A program made the translations under genes and the position numbers. DNA of 64,000 bases from a phage: the NCBI GenBank assembly GCA_020241865.1, contig GCA_020241865.1_4709.1. The stretch is one strand, 5' to 3'. The notes beneath the pieces are model-generated. The model saw only the letters and a list, made by a program, of their open reading frames with translations, was not told the origin of the DNA and made no database searches. This document shows positions 1,173-55,818 of this stretch, one piece after another (position 1 is the stretch's first letter; each line of letters starts with the position of its first letter).

Positions 1173-3785
1173 TTAAGCGTCCGGCGTAAAATCAAAAGGA
1201 ATGTCCGTACGAATGATATCATAACGTTTTCCGAGGAAATAAAACTCTTCGGGAACCTGACCGGGAATAATGCTATCACCGATGAACTGCGGATACGCCC
1301 AGATGTACTGAGTGAGTCCTTCGAACATATCCAGGTTATTTGCGTGGTTACCCATGATACGTTTCCAGAGTTCGCGTTTATACGGCGTTTTAACATCGAA
1401 ACCATAAAGCGGTGCAAGATCTTCACCAGGAACAAATCCCAGGTAATAGTGAATCTGACTAACCGGGAAACCAAGCGTATCTCGCGGAATGGTGATCGCT
1501 TGCTCAGCTTTGGTGACATGCGTTTCAATAATCCAGTCGTAACACTCTGAATAGAACCGATCGAATTTCTCTGGATTATACCACGCTTTGGGAAGATTCA
1601 GTTTCTCCGTGAACGCATTCGACATGATCGTCGGTAAGAACGGAAGAACACCGGTTTTGATCTGCGTGTATTTCGATTTTACCCGGTTAGCCAAATTCCA
1701 GCAACTGTATCCTAACTGTTCGTTACAAAACTCAACGTAGAGATCGTAATCACCGCCGGATAATGGGTTGTTGATATCACCAATGTCTGCAGCGTATTTG
1801 TTGGGATATCGGTTATTGAAAGCCAGTTTGGTTTGGTAATCGTAGATACACGGTTTGTTGTTCGCTGTATTGATCCACCACCAGGGTTCACCCACCTGTA
1901 CACAAATGTCCTGGACATGAGGGTAAATAATATCGGCAAACGCGGTTAACACATCCCCTAACCACGCCATCGCCTGTTGGTTACATGGAGACAGCAACCA
2001 GGATGGTGGTGTATATCCGGTTGCTGCGATGTTTCCTTCCCAATCCTGCTGCGCCCACTCGAACGGGCATGCTGTACTCATCAATTCGTAACTTAAACTG
2101 ATGGTGACAGAGAAATGGTGTTTTGCAGCATATGCGGCGAAAGCTTCATGCCACGCGATACAGGGTGGATTTAATACATCCGTGGTGTTCACCAGTAACT
2201 TACCCGCACTTGGCGTCCAGACAGTATCGTAGAAATGCGACATTCCAACATAATGCACTAATTCATCTTGATACCCCGCATAAACCAGGTTCTCAAATAC
2301 GCGCTCCGGCGTGATGTTGTAATGGTCATCATAAGCGGTTATCGCACGAAGTTCGTGTGGTGTACAGTGGTGACGATTAACCGTCATTTCCTGATACACC
2401 CCATCGATAGGAAGAATCTCGAGGGTTAAACCGAGGTCGATTGGCGTTTCCAGATAGGTCGTTTCAGTCGCACCTTCCTTATAATGTCGAGAACTCATGC
2501 TGAACATCAACGATGCTACCGATTCGAGTTCGATAGGCTCGTCAGCATAGAACCCCGCCATTGCGTCATTGAAATCGATCGTTACGATTGCGCTTCTACC
2601 GTCTTCAGAGACATCGGTGGCGTATCGGGTTAATGAGATATACTGACGGCTATCGTCTTTGTGTACGACGGTTAAAACCGGCGGGTTTTCGGTATCTGCA
2701 AAGTTACGCTGATCGCCAGTAAACGTGATCTTCGCTTTAAAGATCAAACCGAATAACGACGTCATGGGATCATACGCAATACAACCGTGATCCAGCGTAT
2801 CCGTTGTCCGCCATTCTATCCCGACCAACCCGTTAGCGGTATGGCATCGCATATACGCATTAAGTACCATGTCTTCACTGACAACCGCGAAGTTCTCTGT
2901 TGACTGACCGTTGATAATCCAATACATCGGTTGCCAGAGGTTACGCGTACCTTTTGCGTAGCGGTAGGTTGGTGCGCCTTTGGGGTTGCCATTATTAAGA
3001 TGGAATACTGCAGTACCTTGATAATGGTCGTTCGTATTAATCGGAACACTGTAAGCGTCACCGAGGTCCGTACGTTCCACCTTCGTGACCGTTGCGTTTT
3101 CAAATAACCCACGCAGCGCGGGTAAACCGATATCTTCAGGCGCGTTTTCTCGACGAATCGCATCCGCGATGCGATGGGCTAAGGCGGGGTAAATAGCTTC
3201 ACCCTGTTGTAGGTTTGCAAGACCTACAAAGCGATCAGGGTCGATACCAGCAATCAATAACTCAACATCACCCTTCGTTCTATCGTCGTTAAGATATTTC
3301 AGTCCGGTAAGGTCAAGATGCTGAATAAGCGACAACAGGTTGTATTTACGGTTTTCAACAGTTAGTACAAGATCGCCTGCCCAAACCAAACTTCCCTCAT
3401 CCGCTGTTACTTTAACAGATTGTCGGCCTGTGGTAGACGTTGTTGTCGTTTTATTTAATTGTCCTTGTAGGAAGTCGGTTGCGAGGTCAAAGGCAATGCC
3501 GTAACGGTCAGCGACCGCTTGCATGATTTCACGTAACTGGGTATCTTCTTCAATGATAATCTTGACAGGTATTCCCAGGAACGCTTTAGCGAGGTCTCGT
3601 TTAACCAACGAGACGAATACGGATTTGTAGTATCGGCTTCCATCTTTCCCTTTAAAAAGAATGGAGGTTGTTTCGGGTGCCGATAGAACACGTGCAAATA
3701 CAACATCGTCGGAAGTAAGAGAAAGTCCGTTTTTCTCGTTGACCAATCCTAGTATTTCATTTTGCGCGGTTTCATGTAACTTCAT
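1173..3785 (-). CDS. tail fibre/tailspike protein with shared N-terminal anchor module
   Basis: 870-aa ORF; N-terminal ~150 aa (VKRDLAKAFLGIPVKII ... YGIAFDLATDFL) paralogous to the N-termini of 9406..9954, 10090..11859, 15493..16323 and 54310..55764; large unrelated C-terminal domain. Confidence 0.7.
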   Translation of the reverse strand: MKLHETAQNEILGLVNEKNGLSLTSDDVVFARVLSAPETTSILFKGKDGSRYYKSVFVSLVKRDLAKAFLGIPVKIIIEEDTQLREIMQAVADRYGIAFDLATDFLQGQLNKTTTTSTTGRQSVKVTADEGSLVWAGDLVLTVENRKYNLLSLIQHLDLTGLKYLNDDRTKGDVELLIAGIDPDRFVGLANLQQGEAIYPALAHRIADAIRRENAPEDIGLPALRGLFENATVTKVERTDLGDAYSVPINTNDHYQGTAVFHLNNGNPKGAPTYRYAKGTRNLWQPMYWIINGQSTENFAVVSEDMVLNAYMRCHTANGLVGIEWRTTDTLDHGCIAYDPMTSLFGLIFKAKITFTGDQRNFADTENPPVLTVVHKDDSRQYISLTRYATDVSEDGRSAIVTIDFNDAMAGFYADEPIELESVASLMFSMSSRHYKEGATETTYLETPIDLGLTLEILPIDGVYQEMTVNRHHCTPHELRAITAYDDHYNITPERVFENLVYAGYQDELVHYVGMSHFYDTVWTPSAGKLLVNTTDVLNPPCIAWHEAFAAYAAKHHFSVTISLSYELMSTACPFEWAQQDWEGNIAATGYTPPSWLLSPCNQQAMAWLGDVLTAFADIIYPHVQDICVQVGEPWWWINTANNKPCIYDYQTKLAFNNRYPNKYAADIGDINNPLSGGDYDLYVEFCNEQLGYSCWNLANRVKSKYTQIKTGVLPFLPTIMSNAFTEKLNLPKAWYNPEKFDRFYSECYDWIIETHVTKAEQAITIPRDTLGFPVSQIHYYLGFVPGEDLAPLYGFDVKTPYKRELWKRIMGNHANNLDMFEGLTQYIWAYPQFIGDSIIPGQVPEEFYFLGKRYDIIRTDIPFDFTPDA

Positions 3786-10001: not shown

Positions 10002-10046
10002 AAACGTAAACAGTCTTAACGACCGCATAAAATTCCGCGCATATTA

Positions 10047-10058
10047 CCCCCCCCCCCC
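10047..10058. repeat. C12 homopolymer (G12 on the minus strand) in an intergenic hairpin context
   Basis: 12 consecutive C, followed by TCGCTTCGTCGAGGTAGGGGAGG, which can pair with the C tract; 32 nt downstream of the stop of 10090..11859. Confidence 0.9.
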
Positions 10059-10089
10059 TCGCTTCGTCGAGGTAGGGGAGGATAACACT

Positions 10090-16382: not shown

Positions 16383-16439
16383 AAAAAAAAAACGAAAAAA
16401 TAGGAAAACGGTGTTCATCCTTTTTAGGGATGAACACCG
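16383..16439 (-). terminator. strong rho-independent terminator closing the fibre-locus transcription unit
   Basis: 12-bp perfect stem (16409-16420/16428-16439, loop tttttag) followed on the minus strand by a U tract (A10 at 16383-16392 on plus). Confidence 0.8.
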
Positions 16440-31637: not shown

Positions 31638-32270
31638 TCAAGACTTCACAACGCATTCGACTTCGTCGTTCATATAGGCTTCGTATAAAGACAGTACTTC
31701 CTTCATTTTAATTTCAGGTAACGCAACAGAACGAATCGCTTTCAGGATATTCCGTGTCTGATGATGTTTAACCTTCGCTTCACGTAGTTTACAGAATTGA
31801 CGGATGCAGGTATTAACTTTACCACCTTCCGCACGTTCGAGGGCGACGTGCAGTTTCAGATCCAGTAATACTTCCGTGAGTTCCTGGGTGGCAGGATCGT
31901 TACGAATAAGTCGCACCGTCCGTTCATCCGGATTCAACATCGTGAGGAACTGAAGCTTGATCTGTTCAGGTACGGGTTTCGTGTTCATCATGATGGCGTC
32001 AAACTGTTCCTTAACATCCAACTCATTGAACACATAACGTTCGATGTGTACGACGTGTGCTTTTCCCGACTCACCGTAAATCGCCATCGCACGATAGTCA
32101 TCGAACAACACGACATACATCAGATCTTGTTCCGGTCCGATGGTACCATCCATGAGCTTCGGGGCGTGTTTCCTAAAGAAGCCGTAGCGAACCGCTTCAT
32201 CCGGCATGAGCGTCCACGCATTAACGGGCTGTTTTACGAGTTCCATGTAACACCTCATCAAGATTATCAC
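31638..32270 (-). CDS. hypothetical protein
   Basis: 210-aa ORF. Confidence 0.45.
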   Translation of the reverse strand: MIILMRCYMELVKQPVNAWTLMPDEAVRYGFFRKHAPKLMDGTIGPEQDLMYVVLFDDYRAMAIYGESGKAHVVHIERYVFNELDVKEQFDAIMMNTKPVPEQIKLQFLTMLNPDERTVRLIRNDPATQELTEVLLDLKLHVALERAEGGKVNTCIRQFCKLREAKVKHHQTRNILKAIRSVALPEIKMKEVLSLYEAYMNDEVECVVKS

Positions 32271-32529
32271 TTACGCCAGGCGGTACCACAATACCGGTAC
32301 GAATCACAGCAGCAACTTCCTGCATGCCCTTACCCTTCAACGCATAGGTTTCATGTACCACATTACGTCGAGTCGTTAATCCAACAAATTTACATACAAC
32401 CATGTTGTTTTCTGAAAGATAAGCGGTGTCGAGTTCACCGTGCAACAATTCTTTTTCTTTGGTATCAATACCTAATAACGCAATTTGATAAGCAGAAAGT
32501 TTCCAATAACGCATAATCGTCCTATTCAT
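32221..32529 (-). CDS. hypothetical protein
   Basis: 102-aa ORF; overlaps the downstream gene, so the start is uncertain. Confidence 0.35.
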   Translation of the reverse strand: MNRTIMRYWKLSAYQIALLGIDTKEKELLHGELDTAYLSENNMVVCKFVGLTTRRNVVHETYALKGKGMQEVAAVIRTGIVVPPGVSDNLDEVLHGTRKTAR

Positions 32530-33350
32530 AAACTATCAAATATTCTGAAACCAAGTTTCTTGTTTCTACTTTTGCCGAAATCGTTCTTCGTACAGTTACA
32601 GGGTACAATTTTGTCGCCGAACTATAAATCTCTTCAGTCAACGCACAAGCACTGTTGCTAATGATTGTAGGAATTCCCCGCGAGCGCAAGTTGTCAGCCT
32701 TTTCTGCAAGATAACGATGATCGTCTAATGTAAACCCCTCTTGAGTATAGCCCGTAAACGATGCGGTGGGGGAAATGGGAATATAAGGAGGGTCGCAATA
32801 AACGACGTCACCCGGAACCACCTTTTCAAGATGCTTCTGGAACCCACCACTTACAATTTCTACCCCCCCCCCCCTCGACGAAGGCAGCCTGAAGATGGTT
32901 CGCTGCCAGACGCAATTCCTGTTTCGGGAAATAGACGGTCTTATACCGCCCATGCGCAACATTAAATAAACCATCACGATTATAACGACATAAGCCATTG
33001 AAACCGTAACGGTTTAAATACATGAAGCAAACTGCGCGTTCCCACGGATCTTCAGCGCGGTTAAAACGTTCACGTATCTCGTAGTAGCTTCTGACGTCGG
33101 TAGGATCCGTTTGAAAAAGACGTTCCACTTCTTCGATGAAAGATTCTGGACGCGCTAGCAACGCAGACCATACTGAGAGAATATCCTCATTCGCATCACC
33201 TATCGAATACGCTGGGTACTTAAGAGCAAGCGTAACAGCGCCGGAACCAACGAATGGTTCAACAAGACGCTTTCCTTTAGGTAACACTTTTTCAATCTCA
33301 GGGATAAGCCTGGTTTTGTTCCCAAGCCATTTAAGAAATGTTCTGCTCAT
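32522..33350 (-). CDS. dam: DNA adenine (N6) methyltransferase, Dam family, reading frame interrupted at a G12 homopolymer
   Basis: Two overlapping ORFs (32826..33350 and 32522..32998) whose frames differ by 1 are together collinear with E. coli/T4 Dam: N-terminal KWLGNKTRL ... EPFVGSGAV SAM-binding region in the first, catalytic DPPY motif in the second; the junction is the G12 run (C12 at 32863..32874 on plus); one fewer G would fuse the frames. Confidence 0.8.
32863..32874. repeat. C12 homopolymer (G12 on the coding strand) inside the dam coding sequence
   Basis: 12 consecutive C counted directly; encodes GGGG in the upstream frame; same length and same TCG 3' flank as the tract at 10047..10058. 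Confidence 0.9.
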
Positions 33351-33765
33351 CGATTGGCGTTCCGATAATGTTGATGACTATTTCCGTTCGAACCGGATTG
33401 GTCAGTACGGCCTGCATGCATTCAAGCATTGTTGGGTTATCCGTAACCACCACATCGGCGTAACACAACGGATGGCTTTCGAACGCTTCGGTATCACTTA
33501 CTAACAGAACACCCATCATATTTACGTATTGCGGTATGCGACCACGAATGCGTTGCCACATGTCTTGAGTAAGGTCCTCGCTTTCTAATGCAACCACAAC
33601 AACAGGACTGATATTTACCGGAAAACGCGGATGCACCGTACGACGAAATGTTATCCAGTTTTCGATGTGGGATAATGCAAGTTCGAGAGAACAGCATTTT
33701 GGAGAAATCTGTATGTTTATTTGTTGAATCAATGAAAGGGGGTTTTGTACAGTCGCTTCAGCCAT
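33331..33765 (-). CDS. hypothetical protein
   Basis: 144-aa ORF. Confidence 0.45.
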   Translation of the reverse strand: MAEATVQNPLSLIQQINIQISPKCCSLELALSHIENWITFRRTVHPRFPVNISPVVVVALESEDLTQDMWQRIRGRIPQYVNMMGVLLVSDTEAFESHPLCYADVVVTDNPTMLECMQAVLTNPVRTEIVINIIGTPIDEQNIS

Positions 33766-54309: not shown

Positions 54310-55764
54310 ATGAAACTTAAACAAAGCTGGAAAGACGAACTTCTCGCGTTAGTAAACAGCAAAAACAGTTTACAACTGACATTAGACGATGTAAAATTTG
54401 AACTAACGGCACCGGTAAGCGAAGTGCCTGGAACGGTCGTTGTTACAATCAAACCGAACGATAATAGTCGCTACTTTAACGAGCAGTCTCTGACCTACAT
54501 CCGTCGAGACATCGCTAAAAACTTCACTGGGATCCCGTTACGGGTCATCGTTAAAAAAGATACCGCTGTAAGGGATATCATCAATACGATTGCTGAACGT
54601 TACGGATTGGTATTTGACACAGCCGTCGACTTCCTCGAATCCGAGCTGAATAAACAAATTACGTTCGCAGACACCGGTATTAAAGACATTACGGTTCCGG
54701 TTGCAAACACGTCTTATGTTTGGGCGGGTAATCTTCAGTTCAATATTGCTAACGATACGTTAAGCTTGATTACTATCATCAAGAAAACCGATCTTACGAA
54801 TCTGGTTTATCTGGATGGTGTTGAAGCTGACACATCTGGTTCGTTACTATTAGCAACCGCAGCACTTGTTAACGAACACGTAAATGAACCGATGGTTGAA
54901 AACGAAGATATCGTTAATGAATTTATTAACGTTCTTAATACTCTAGCCAAATATGGTGACATAACCGGCGATGAATTAGATGCCGCCTTACAAGCGTACG
55001 ATGAAGCAGAAAACAGGAATAAAACCACGGTAATAACTCTTGGTGATATCCAGTGTGTTGCAACAGAAAAAGACGATTGGGAAATTGGACGTTTACGCGG
55101 TCAGATGGTTCTCGCGCTCAAATCCGATAAATACCCGGAGCCCGATAACACGTTCAGGTTGTTTACGAATGGTGGTGACGTATCGCTAACGTTAAACACA
55201 ATGAAAGATATAAGTATCGATTGGGGTGATGGGAATAAAGTAACGTTGGATGCTGAAGAAAGATACGCGCACCACACATACGCCGACAATAACCAGTACC
55301 AAATCGAAATTGTGTCTCGTACGGACCCAGATGTGCTGCGACCAAATTATATTTCTGGGAGTGAGATAACCGAAGTAATTCACTGGGCTACTACTTCAAC
55401 AATAGCTCTGAATTTTGTTGGATGCGATAATTTAGCGACTGTTCCAGATGAGATCCCAACTTCGTGGACAACGTTGGACAGCATGTTTGAAAGTTGTACG
55501 AATTTGAATGATCCGTCTATCTCTAACTGGAATACAAGTAACATCACATCAATGAATGGTATGTTCGGCGGATGCACTAAATTTAACCAACCTTTAGCTG
55601 CCTGGGATGTCAGCTCAGTAACTGACATTGGTGGTATGTTTAACGGATGCAACAGTTTTAACCAAGATTTAAGTGGGTGGCGATTACCGTCAGGAGTAAC
55701 CCACGACAATTACGATAGTGGTGCTTTCTCGTGGCAGACGGAACATAAACCGACGTTCCAGTAA
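54310..55764 (+). CDS. tail fibre with shared N-terminal anchor module and C-terminal DUF285 (BspA-like) repeats, displaced from the main fibre locus
   Basis: 484-aa ORF; N-terminus SWKDELLALVNSKNSLQLT ... YIRRDIAKNFTGIPLRVIV ... YGLVFDTAVDFL; C-terminus FESCTNLNDPSISNWNTSNITSMNGMF, WDVSSVTDIGGMFNGCNSFNQDLSGW. Confidence 0.75.
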   Translation: MKLKQSWKDELLALVNSKNSLQLTLDDVKFELTAPVSEVPGTVVVTIKPNDNSRYFNEQSLTYIRRDIAKNFTGIPLRVIVKKDTAVRDIINTIAERYGLVFDTAVDFLESELNKQITFADTGIKDITVPVANTSYVWAGNLQFNIANDTLSLITIIKKTDLTNLVYLDGVEADTSGSLLLATAALVNEHVNEPMVENEDIVNEFINVLNTLAKYGDITGDELDAALQAYDEAENRNKTTVITLGDIQCVATEKDDWEIGRLRGQMVLALKSDKYPEPDNTFRLFTNGGDVSLTLNTMKDISIDWGDGNKVTLDAEERYAHHTYADNNQYQIEIVSRTDPDVLRPNYISGSEITEVIHWATTSTIALNFVGCDNLATVPDEIPTSWTTLDSMFESCTNLNDPSISNWNTSNITSMNGMFGGCTKFNQPLAAWDVSSVTDIGGMFNGCNSFNQDLSGWRLPSGVTHDNYDSGAFSWQTEHKPTFQ

Positions 55765-55818
55765 AAAAAAAAATAGTTAGCATATCTTCCTCCCTACCCA
55801 TAACGGGCGGGGAGGAAG
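55763..55818. terminator. bidirectional terminator between convergent genes (A11 tract plus GC hairpin plus GTTTTATGG)
   Basis: A11 at 55763-55773 (U11 for minus-strand transcripts), then stem CTTCCTCCC/GGGAGGAAG (55786-55794/55810-55818) with an inner CCC/GGG pair, followed by T-rich sequence on plus. Confidence 0.7.

What the first reader, a model, noticed from the sequence alone, without database searches (positions are those of the whole stretch)
32522..33350. Dam methyltransferase gene is out of frame at a 12-nt poly-G run: candidate phase-variable or slippage-controlled methylase
The two overlapping ORFs are together collinear with Dam (SAM-binding N-terminus, then DPPY), and the only thing separating them is a G12 homopolymer (C12 on plus, 32863..32874). 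A tract of 11 (or 14) G would give one continuous reading frame. A 12-nt homopolymer inside an otherwise conserved enzyme gene is a classic slipped-strand or transcriptional-slippage switch, so the phage population may be a mix of Dam-ON and Dam-OFF genomes, which would matter for evading or exploiting host restriction and mismatch repair. The alternative is a homopolymer length error in the assembly.
Basis: partly seen in the sequence, partly recalled or inferred. Interest (0 to 1): 0.8.

Follow-up and report, generated by a model that had tools for sequence, protein, structure and literature searches.

The report
Switchable Dam methylase in a jumbo phage
A giant E. coli/Salmonella phage related to Goslar carries a DNA-methylase gene interrupted by a run of 12 G's, and in public assemblies the length of that run differs on otherwise identical gene copies, so the gene appears to flip on and off by replication slippage; this copy is off.

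Summary
A G12 run (minus strand, 32863..32874) splits a Dam methyltransferase gene into two ORFs that match the Dam profile end to end. G8, G11 or G14 would restore one ORF of 274-276 aa.

The window is a Goslar-like, nucleus-forming jumbo phage. The dam gene is an 850-bp cassette that Goslar itself lacks.

A one-off assembly error is unlikely. The identical 829-nt gene with G12 recurs in at least 7 independent sequencing runs. Exact-sequence look-ups find the same allele with products implying G9, G10, G11 (intact, 275 aa), G12 and G13 in 1, 7, 5, 7 and 4 contigs. Three further lineages also show several lengths.

It is not an old pseudogene. dN/dS is about 0.1-0.15 on both sides of the frameshift, and there are no secondary lesions.

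The best reading is a hypermutable contingency tract that switches a phage Dam on and off, with this copy off. Whether the switching is adaptive is not shown.

Precedents exist: phage T2 agt, Campylobacter-phage polyG tracts and a BPP-1 methylase. It is therefore a new member of a known kind.

A second variable G12 tract lies in a hairpin upstream of tail-fibre genes and shares an 11-nt flank with the dam tract.

The parts
32522..33350 (-). dam gene (Dam-family N6-adenine DNA methyltransferase), frameshifted in this copy (OFF state)
   Evidence: Pfam PF02086 and NCBIfam TIGR00571 hits on both halves are collinear. The G11-repaired product aligns over residues 2-274 with E. coli Dam structures 4gol/2g1p, E = 1e-68.
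32863..32874 (-). G12 homopolymer (C12 on the + strand), the hypermutable tract. It encodes the Gly run of ...AFVE-GGG-VEIV...
   Evidence: Length variants of the same allele are in public assemblies. In an AF2 model of the 92%-identical P0001, the Gly run is the turn between helix 143-158 and strand 162-166.
32826..33350 (-). N-terminal ORF, 174 aa. It carries SAM-binding motif I (FVGSGA, nt 33237..33254) and the NGLCRYN hairpin, and ends in an 11-residue out-of-frame tail, RNCKWWVPEAS
   Evidence: This exact product is on record in at least 9 contigs.
32522..32863 (-). C-terminal reading frame (113 codons plus stop), starting at the GTA that uses the last G of the tract. It contains catalytic motif IV, DPPY (nt 32783..32794)
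   Evidence: profile positions 158-266. dN/dS is about 0.09-0.26 between lineages.
32516..33365 (-). dam cassette: about 850 bp present here in place of about 33 bp in phage Goslar, between homologues of Goslar_00125 and Goslar_00124
   Evidence: Alignment with MK327938.1. The block is 100% identical from 33419 down to about 32494, 32152 or 31825 in phages whose flanks differ by 5-7%.
10047..10058 (-). Second G12 tract (site A). It is intergenic and forms the 3' arm of a strong hairpin (10041..10088), downstream of a 589-aa DUF7941/DUF285 gene and upstream of a 175-aa DUF7941 gene and a tail-fibre gene
   Evidence: -32.7 kcal/mol, z = -4.9. In the 10 retrieved contigs with an identical neighbouring gene the lengths are 11 (3), 12 (3), 13 (3) and an interrupted 6 (1); the window itself has 12. 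The 11-mer CTTCGTCGAGG is shared with the dam tract flank.

Best explanation
The G run inside dam is a hypermutable simple-sequence tract, that is, a contingency locus. Slipped-strand mispairing during phage DNA replication adds or removes G's. A length of 11 (or 8 or 14) gives an intact 275-aa Dam. Lengths 9, 10, 12 and 13 truncate the enzyme before its catalytic DPPY motif. The window carries the G12 OFF state of a gene that is functional over evolutionary time.

Shown: the tract; the collinear Dam halves; length polymorphism on identical allele backgrounds in several lineages; purifying selection on both halves; and the Gly run sitting in a 7-residue insertion that forms a helix-to-strand turn.

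Inferred: that switching is fast and reversible within populations; that the ON enzyme methylates GATC on phage DNA, which may be out of reach of host Dam because Goslar-type phages replicate inside a protein 'nucleus'; and that ON/OFF mixtures are a bet-hedge against GATC-directed host nucleases versus the costs of methylation.
For: (1) The tract and frames are as described.
(2) The same 829-nt gene with G12 is present in NCBI GCA_020395325.1 and in Logan assemblies of ERR4228819, SRR16203672, SRR16035824, SRR15970248, SRR12795745 and ERR14767807 (the last contig ends inside the gene, 568 nt compared). The 20-kb flanks of these contigs are only 93.6-100% identical to the window.
(3) Exact-sequence look-ups of the same allele gave G9 in 1 contig, G10 in 7, G11 (intact 275 aa, e.g. 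EFE5661829.1) in 5, G12 in 7 and G13 in 4. G8, G14 and G15 were absent.
(4) Three more lineages are polymorphic: G9/G10/G12, G10/G12 and G10/G11.
(5) At the DNA level, relatives show pure G11 (ON, L007 and L021), G9 (ON, L011), G6AG4 and G5AG5 (ON), GGGAGGAGGGG (ON) and G6AG5 (OFF, seen in two runs).
(6) Nei-Gojobori dN/dS is 0.04-0.29 (mostly 0.1-0.15) in both halves. This includes the OFF-versus-OFF pair window/L005 downstream of the frameshift (omega 0.14, dS 0.31). No OFF allele carries a second lesion.
(7) NCBI proteins P0142-P0145 are partial products that end or start at the tract. Contigs therefore break there, as expected if reads disagree on the length.
(8) The tract lies in a 7-aa insertion relative to E. 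coli Dam, in a surface turn that should tolerate 2-4 Gly.
(9) There is precedent for phage contingency loci in a DNA-modification gene: T2 agt, PMC12633550.
Against: No reads were available, so heterogeneity within one sample and the switching rate are not measured. Short-read consensus calling at G9-G13 is error-prone, and some of the apparent length variation could be technical. Contig counts may include the same sample assembled twice.

The in-frame length 11 is not enriched (5 of 24 contigs). The gene is therefore dispensable in the sampled populations, and an adaptive role is not demonstrated. Half of the lineages have A-interrupted, stabilised tracts, so a pure tract is not universally maintained. 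No known enterobacterial defence gives an obvious cost to GATC methylation in Dam+ hosts.
Confidence: 0.7

Rival explanations
1. Fragile site in a dispensable accessory gene. The tract really does change length, but this is only mutational damage to a gene the phage does not need (Goslar lacks it). OFF copies would then be dead ends on the way to gene loss, not one state of a useful switch.
For: Goslar lacks the cassette. Only 5 of 24 contigs of this allele are in frame, no more than the one third expected by chance. Several lineages have replaced G's by A's, which stabilises the ON frame. A frameshift also occurs in an interrupted tract, G6AG5, which would rarely revert.
Against: dN/dS of about 0.1-0.15 downstream of the frameshift, including between two OFF lineages, shows long-term selection for the full-length protein. 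No OFF allele has any second lesion in 817 nt. A pure G9 run persists in a relative at saturated synonymous divergence although GGG is a minority Gly codon. ON and OFF forms coexist on identical backgrounds in four lineages.
Confidence: 0.18
2. Sequencing or assembly artefact. The true tract is G11 and in frame, and G12 in this record is a homopolymer length miscall.
For: G runs of 11-13 are hard for short-read and nanopore chemistries. Contigs break at the tract in several assemblies. The intergenic site-A tract differs by one G between the window and SRR16035824, which is otherwise identical over about 24 kb.
Against: G12 with an identical gene was assembled independently from at least 7 runs and by two pipelines. 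Consensus lengths range from 9 to 13 with no dominant mode, which is not what noise around a single true length looks like. A frameshift also exists in a G5/G6 context, where miscalls are rare, and it was seen in two runs.
Confidence: 0.07
3. Programmed recoding. The G12 gene is the normal form, and full-length Dam is made by +1 ribosomal frameshifting or by RNA-polymerase slippage on the G run.
For: A G12 run in the mRNA allows tRNA-Gly re-pairing in the +1 frame (GGG-GGU to G-GGG-GUA). Two independent OFF alleles, G12 and G6AG5, share the same +1 relation. The phage uses its own RNA polymerases, whose slippage behaviour is unknown.
Against: Most relatives encode Dam in a single frame. OFF alleles occur in both alternative frames (G9/G12 and G10/G13), so no fixed frame relation is conserved. 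No rare or stop codon sits at the shift site, and the local RNA fold is unremarkable (z = -2.07). E. coli RNA polymerase slippage is established for A/T runs (my own knowledge, not checked here).
Confidence: 0.05

Closest known systems
Contingency loci of coliphages T2/T4 (agt and rIIA; Gomez, Barrick & Waters 2025 preprint, PMC12633550)
   Same: A homopolymer inside a phage gene that changes length by polymerase slippage and reversibly knocks the gene out. In T2 the gene (agt) is also a DNA-modification enzyme, and the switch trades off two kinds of restriction.
   Different: The T2/T4 tracts are A runs of about 6-9 nt with measured rates. Here the tract is G9-G13, in a Dam methylase of a nucleus-forming jumbo phage. 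The evidence is comparative (public assemblies), not experimental.
Hypermutable polyG tracts of Campylobacter Fletchervirus phages (Sorensen et al. 2021, cited in PMC12633550)
   Same: PolyG tracts of 7-11 nt in phage coding regions generate ON/OFF subpopulations.
   Different: Those tracts are in receptor-binding proteins of phages whose host itself uses polyG phase variation. Here the gene is a methylase and the hosts are enterobacteria. The second tract in this window (site A) does lie next to tail-fibre genes, but it is intergenic.
PolyG tract in a methylase gene of Bordetella phage BPP-1 (Liu et al. 2004, as summarised in PMC12633550)
   Same: A phage-encoded DNA methylase gene containing a polyG tract.
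   Different: I could not read the primary paper. It is a different methylase family and a temperate podovirus, and no population survey of tract lengths is known to me.
Bacterial phasevarions (phase-variable Type III mod and other methyltransferases of Haemophilus, Neisseria, Helicobacter and Campylobacter; reviewed in PMC13076061)
   Same: Simple-sequence repeats inside a methyltransferase ORF switch methylation ON and OFF.
   Different: Those are chromosomal genes of restriction-modification systems that reprogramme host gene expression. This is an orphan Dam on a lytic phage genome.
Orphan Dam methyltransferases of E. coli and of phages (E. coli Dam, PDB 2g1p/4gol; T4 Dam, 1q0s/1yfj)
   Same: Same fold family and motif order. 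The product aligns end to end with E. coli Dam, and the FxGxG, NGLCRYN hairpin and DPPY motifs are present.
   Different: Identity is only about 44% to enterobacterial Dam and 45-48% to the nearest cellular Dams (Shewanella). The product has a 7-aa FVEGGGV insertion that holds the tract. No isolated phage in GenBank has a Dam more than 60% identical.

Membership tests
Dam family N6-adenine DNA methyltransferase (Pfam PF02086 / NCBIfam TIGR00571) | Profile match above the curated cut-off over the whole profile | tested here: met
   PF02086: N-half 128 bits (profile 1-159) and C-half 70.6 bits (158-253), cut-off 22. TIGR00571: the intact homologue P0001 scores 246.6 bits against a cut-off of 114.85, and the window halves cover 2-157 and 158-266.
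Dam family N6-adenine DNA methyltransferase (Pfam PF02086 / NCBIfam TIGR00571) | SAM-binding motif I (FxGxG) near the N-terminus, and catalytic motif IV (DPPY) after the target-recognition region | tested here: met
   EPFVGSGAV at residues 31-39, and DPPY at residues 186-189 of the repaired protein. Both are invariant in alignments of 11 and 49 relatives.
Dam family N6-adenine DNA methyltransferase (Pfam PF02086 / NCBIfam TIGR00571) | Methylates the adenine of GATC | not testable with these tools
   Inferred only, from the end-to-end alignment with E. coli Dam (E = 1e-68) and the conserved NGLCRYN hairpin.
Contingency locus / simple-sequence-repeat phase variation | A repeat tract inside the ORF whose +1/-1 changes toggle the reading frame | tested here: met
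   G8, G11 and G14 are in frame; G9, G10, G12 and G13 truncate the protein.
Contingency locus / simple-sequence-repeat phase variation | Tract length differs among otherwise identical or near-identical genomes, with ON and OFF forms on the same background | tested here: met
   The same allele occurs with G9, G10, G11, G12 and G13 in 1, 7, 5, 7 and 4 contigs. Three more lineages are polymorphic. Outside the tract, 0 substitutions were found in 817 compared nt among 6 full-length G12 contigs (a seventh, L018, is cut inside the gene).
Contingency locus / simple-sequence-repeat phase variation | Elevated, reversible mutation rate, and mixed lengths within one population | not testable with these tools
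   No reads or lysates were available. Two hints exist: contigs break at the tract (P0142-P0145), and the longest contig on record for the G13 product P0137 is 39,426 bp against 39,425 bp for the G12 contig SRR12795745_889, a one-base difference that I did not verify at DNA level.
Contingency locus / simple-sequence-repeat phase variation | The switch has a phenotypic consequence under alternating selection | not testable with these tools
   Inference only. GATC is the most under-represented 4-nt palindrome in the window (283 observed against 434 expected), which suggests that GATC-directed attack matters to this phage.
Programmed ribosomal frameshift / transcriptional slippage gene | The two-frame arrangement is conserved among relatives | tested here: not met
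   Most relatives have a single ORF, and OFF alleles fall in both alternative frames.
Pseudogene (long-term inactivated) | Relaxed selection and further lesions downstream of the inactivating mutation | tested here: not met
   The C-half omega is 0.09-0.26, and 0.14 between two OFF lineages. There are no extra stops or indels.

The most novel reading that the evidence does not exclude
The two G tracts of this genome may be copies of one portable element. In some relatives the intergenic hairpin upstream of the tail-fibre genes reads CTTCGTCGA-G(11-13)-TA. This is the same string as the 21-nt FVEGGGV insertion that carries the tract in dam. The hairpin loop also flips orientation between genomes. 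The phage lineage may therefore seed hypermutable G tracts by template switching or gene conversion from a quasi-palindrome. That would place both self-methylation and tail-fibre expression under stochastic switches, in a virus otherwise thought to rely on its protein 'nucleus' for protection.
Probability: 0.1. Interest if true: 0.8.

Novelty: new member of a known kind. Interest (0 to 1): 0.6.

Why it matters
Nucleus-forming jumbo phages are thought to escape DNA-targeting defences by physical shielding. An accessory Dam that is kept under purifying selection yet flips on and off suggests that methylation state still matters for them. Host Dam may not reach DNA replicated inside the shell.

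It also adds a natural, population-level example to the very recent idea that phages use contingency loci, and again the gene is a DNA-modification gene. Many independent clinical and food isolates already carry the different states, so the case is easy to test: tract-length counts in existing reads, DpnI/MboI digests, and m6A calling.

On the practical side, annotators and assemblers will keep splitting this gene or breaking contigs at it.

Tried and rejected
- A pattern scan for the tract's downstream flank found nothing in IMG/VR viral contigs or in GTDB species-representative genomes. It found only 3 metagenome contigs.
- Megablast of the gene found nothing in complete E. coli genomes or in PLSDB plasmids.
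- Among isolated phages only Goslar matched, and only in the flanks.
- DNA for the G9, G10, G11 and G13 alleles could not be fetched, because the look-up of encoding contigs refuses ids that come from the listing of cluster members. Those lengths therefore rest on exact protein sequences.
- The first look-up of the site-A neighbour used a TTG-extended ORF and found nothing. The ATG start worked.
- Liu et al. 2004 (BPP-1) is not held.

Readings considered and rejected:
- Programmed frameshift: the frames are not conserved among relatives.
- Old pseudogene: dN/dS is low and there are no second lesions.
- One-off assembly error: G12 was reproduced in at least 7 runs.
- A two-subunit split methylase: there is no evidence of a start site for the C-half, and all intact relatives are single chains.
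- Recent capture of the host dam gene: identity is only about 44%.

The chance explanation for the shared 11-mer was examined. The exact 11-mer occurs only twice in the window, both times beside a G12 tract. With one mismatch allowed, however, 3 matches is not unusual (13 of 100 shuffles). The argument therefore rests on the position next to both tracts, not on the count.

Full report
WHAT IS THERE

On the minus strand the sequence reads GCC TTC GTC GA-G12-TA GAA ATT. The G run occupies window 32863..32874. Upstream of it, ORF 33350..32826 encodes 174 aa. Downstream, in the +1 frame, the reading frame runs from the GTA that uses the last G (32863) to the stop at 32522.

The two pieces hit Pfam PF02086 at profile positions 1-159 and 158-253. 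They hit NCBIfam TIGR00571 (dam) at positions 2-157 and 158-266. They are therefore the two halves of one Dam gene, joined exactly at the tract.

Replacing G12 by G8, G11 or G14 gives a single ORF of 274-276 aa. The G11 product aligns over residues 2-274 with E. coli Dam structures (4gol, 2g1p; E = 1e-68) and has one 7-residue insertion, which holds the Gly run. Motif I (EPFVGSGAV), the NGLCRYN hairpin and DPPY are all present and conserved. In an AlphaFold2 model of the 92%-identical intact homologue P0001 (mean pLDDT 89), the Gly run is the turn between helix 143-158 and strand 162-166. Such a position should tolerate two to four glycines.

An exact G12 is far beyond chance. There are two in the window against none in 100 shuffles, and GGG makes up only 17.4% of Gly codons.

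CONTEXT

The window is a close relative (94% over 8 kb) of Escherichia phage vB_EcoM_Goslar. Goslar is a nucleus-forming chimallivirus (PMC12908238). Goslar has no dam. In the window, about 850 bp (32516..33365) replace about 33 bp between the homologues of Goslar_00125 and Goslar_00124.

No isolated phage in GenBank has a Dam more than 60% identical. The nearest cellular Dams (Shewanella and others) are 45-48% identical and lack the insertion. Close homologues (90-94% at nucleotide level) sit at the same genomic position in other Goslar-like contigs of 238-243 kb. Many of these come from E. coli, Salmonella and Shigella isolate assemblies.

IS G12 AN ERROR?

The exact 174-aa truncated product is on record in at least 9 contigs. 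These are NCBI GCA_020395325.1 and Logan assemblies of ERR4228819, SRR16203672, SRR16035824, SRR15970248, SRR12795745 (four samples) and ERR14767807. In six of the seven retrieved contigs the whole 829-nt gene, G12 included, is identical to the window; the seventh (ERR14767807) ends inside the gene and is identical over the 568 nt it holds. Their 20-kb surroundings are only 93.6-100% identical. A random miscall would not recur like that.

IS THE LENGTH VARIABLE?

I built the products expected for other tract lengths on the window's exact allele and looked them up by exact sequence.
- G9: present, 1 contig.
- G10: present, 7 contigs.
- G11: present, 5 contigs. This is the intact 275-aa Dam, for example EFE5661829.1.
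- G12: present, 7 contigs.
- G13: present, 4 contigs.
- G8, G14 and G15: absent.

A second census found G9/G10/G12 in a second lineage, G10/G12 in a third and G10/G11 in a fourth.

At the DNA level, relatives show these states:
- pure G11 (ON; L007 and L021);
- G9 in a different codon context (ON; L011, 72% identical);
- G6AG4 and G5AG5 (ON);
- GGGAGGAGGGG (ON);
- G6AG5 (OFF, in two runs). Short-read miscalls are rare in a G5/G6 context, so this frameshift is probably a real mutation.

Several NCBI proteins (P0142-P0145) are partial products that stop or start right at the tract, so contigs break there.

The length therefore changes far faster than point mutations accumulate: at least four length changes against zero substitutions in 817 nt. 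I had no reads, so heterogeneity within a sample is inferred, not shown. Some contigs may also be the same sample assembled twice.

IS IT A DECAYING GENE?

Nei-Gojobori dN/dS between lineages is mostly 0.1-0.15 in both halves. This includes the half downstream of the frameshift and the comparison of two OFF lineages (window versus L005: omega 0.14 at dS 0.31). No OFF allele has a second lesion. The full-length protein has therefore been under purifying selection along the lines leading to today's OFF copies, which means the OFF state is recent or reversible.

On the other hand, in-frame lengths are not enriched (5 of 24 contigs). Three of six lineages examined at DNA level have A-interrupted tracts, which are stabilised. 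An adaptive role for the instability is therefore plausible but not demonstrated.

RECODING?

Most relatives are single-frame. OFF alleles fall in both alternative frames (G9/G12 and G10/G13). No slow or stop codon sits at the shift site, and the local RNA fold is unremarkable (z = -2.07). A dedicated programmed frameshift or slippage signal is therefore unlikely. Low-level leakiness on a G12 mRNA cannot be excluded.

MOST LIKELY MECHANISM

Slipped-strand mispairing at the G run during phage DNA replication toggles dam between an intact 275-aa form and a truncated form that lacks DPPY. That part follows from the sequence and the census.

The rest is inference. The ON enzyme probably methylates GATC on phage DNA. 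For a phage that replicates inside a protein shell, this may be the only source of Dam methylation. Populations may then carry both states as a bet-hedge.

GATC is the most under-represented 4-nt palindrome in the window (283 observed against 434 expected). This fits a history of GATC-directed attack. From memory, GATC counter-selection in enterobacteriophages has been attributed to MutH acting on under-methylated DNA; I did not check this here.

The closest precedent is the T2 agt contingency locus. It is also in a DNA-modification gene and trades off two restriction systems (PMC12633550). Other precedents are the polyG tracts in Campylobacter-phage receptor-binding genes and a polyG tract in a BPP-1 methylase gene. 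Bacterial phasevarions are the cellular analogue.

SIDE FINDINGS

A second G12 lies at 10047..10058. It is intergenic and forms the 3' arm of a strong hairpin (-32.7 kcal/mol, z = -4.9). The hairpin sits just after a 589-aa DUF7941/DUF285 gene and upstream of a 175-aa DUF7941 gene and a tail-fibre gene. Goslar has CCCCTCTACCCC at this position.

In the ten retrieved contigs with an identical neighbouring gene, the tract is 11 in three contigs, 12 in three and 13 in three, with one interrupted G6; the window itself has 12. The contig SRR16035824_172 matches the window at every other position over about 24 kb but has G13 here. The hairpin loop also occurs in both orientations, ACGAAG or CTTCGT.

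In the CTTCGT form the string CTTCGTCGA-Gn-TA is the same as the dam tract context. The exact 11-mer CTTCGTCGAGG occurs only twice in the window, each time beside a G12. The 21-nt FVEGGGV insertion in Dam thus looks like a copy of this hairpin arm. I could not explain this.

The dam cassette is 100% identical from 33419 down to about 32494, 32152 or 31825 in phages whose flanks differ by 5-7%. It has therefore recently moved between co-circulating phages by recombination.

VERDICT

This is a hypermutable tract that switches a jumbo-phage Dam on and off, seen here in the OFF state. It is a new member of a known kind. It is of moderate to high interest because of the host-shielded lifestyle of these phages and because the prediction can be tested directly on existing read sets.

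Noticed in passing
window 10041..10088 (tract 10047..10058): A second G12 (minus strand) forms the 3' arm of a strong intergenic hairpin between a DUF7941/DUF285 gene and a DUF7941 gene plus a tail-fibre gene. In the retrieved contigs with an identical neighbouring gene the length is 11, 12 or 13 (three contigs each) or an interrupted G6; the window has 12. Goslar has CCCCTCTACCCC at this position. It may be a length-variable regulatory or terminator element for tail-fibre expression.
   Followed up: partly
window 10062..10072 (+) and 32873..32883 (-); L028/L029 around 1360..1390: The exact 11-mer CTTCGTCGAGG occurs only twice in the window, each time next to a G12. In relatives L028 and L029, site A reads CTTCGTCGA-G11/13-TA. 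This is the same string as the 21-nt FVEGGGV insertion that holds the dam tract. A common origin by template switch or gene conversion is possible but unexplained.
   Followed up: partly
window 10059..10075, compared with L022, L023, L028 and L029: The 6-nt loop of the site-A hairpin occurs in both orientations among near-identical phages (ACGAAG or CTTCGT). Some copies also carry an extra GGTA before the G run. This is the signature of quasi-palindrome inversion.
   Followed up: no
window 32516..33365, and 31825..33419: The dam cassette is an insertion relative to Goslar. It is 100% identical in phages whose neighbouring DNA is 5-7% diverged. The left boundary of the identical block is the same (33420) in three of them, and the right boundaries differ. 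This points to recent recombinational spread of the cassette.
   Followed up: partly
loci L012, L025 and others; proteins P0121, P0136, P0140-P0145: Goslar-like phage genomes appear as contigs of 236-243 kb in many public-health isolate assemblies labelled E. coli O157, Salmonella enterica and Shigella flexneri. This suggests frequent carriage (carrier state or pseudolysogeny) of a nucleus-forming phage in enteric isolates.
   Followed up: no
whole window: GATC is the most under-represented of the 16 four-base palindromes (283 observed, 434 expected from trinucleotides; O/E 0.65).
   Followed up: partly
L005 9697..9725 and L006 543..571: A relative carries the tract as G6AG5 (12 nt, frameshifted) in two runs, while its sister allele (L020) has G5AG5 (in frame). 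This is a real +1 frameshift in a short run and gives the same 174-aa truncated product.
   Followed up: yes
proteins P0142-P0145 (NCBI EDV8486531.1, EKA3416424.1, ECE9610371.1, EKA3416462.1): Partial Dam products end or begin within a few codons of the tract, so contigs terminate there. One of them is a 243-kb whole-phage contig. This suggests that assemblers cannot resolve the tract, possibly because the reads are mixed.
   Followed up: no
window 16383..16392 and 55763..55773: A10 and A11 runs. The first is intergenic and the second starts at the stop codon of a 484-aa ORF. They are not in coding sequence and could serve as internal controls for homopolymer noise.
   Followed up: partly
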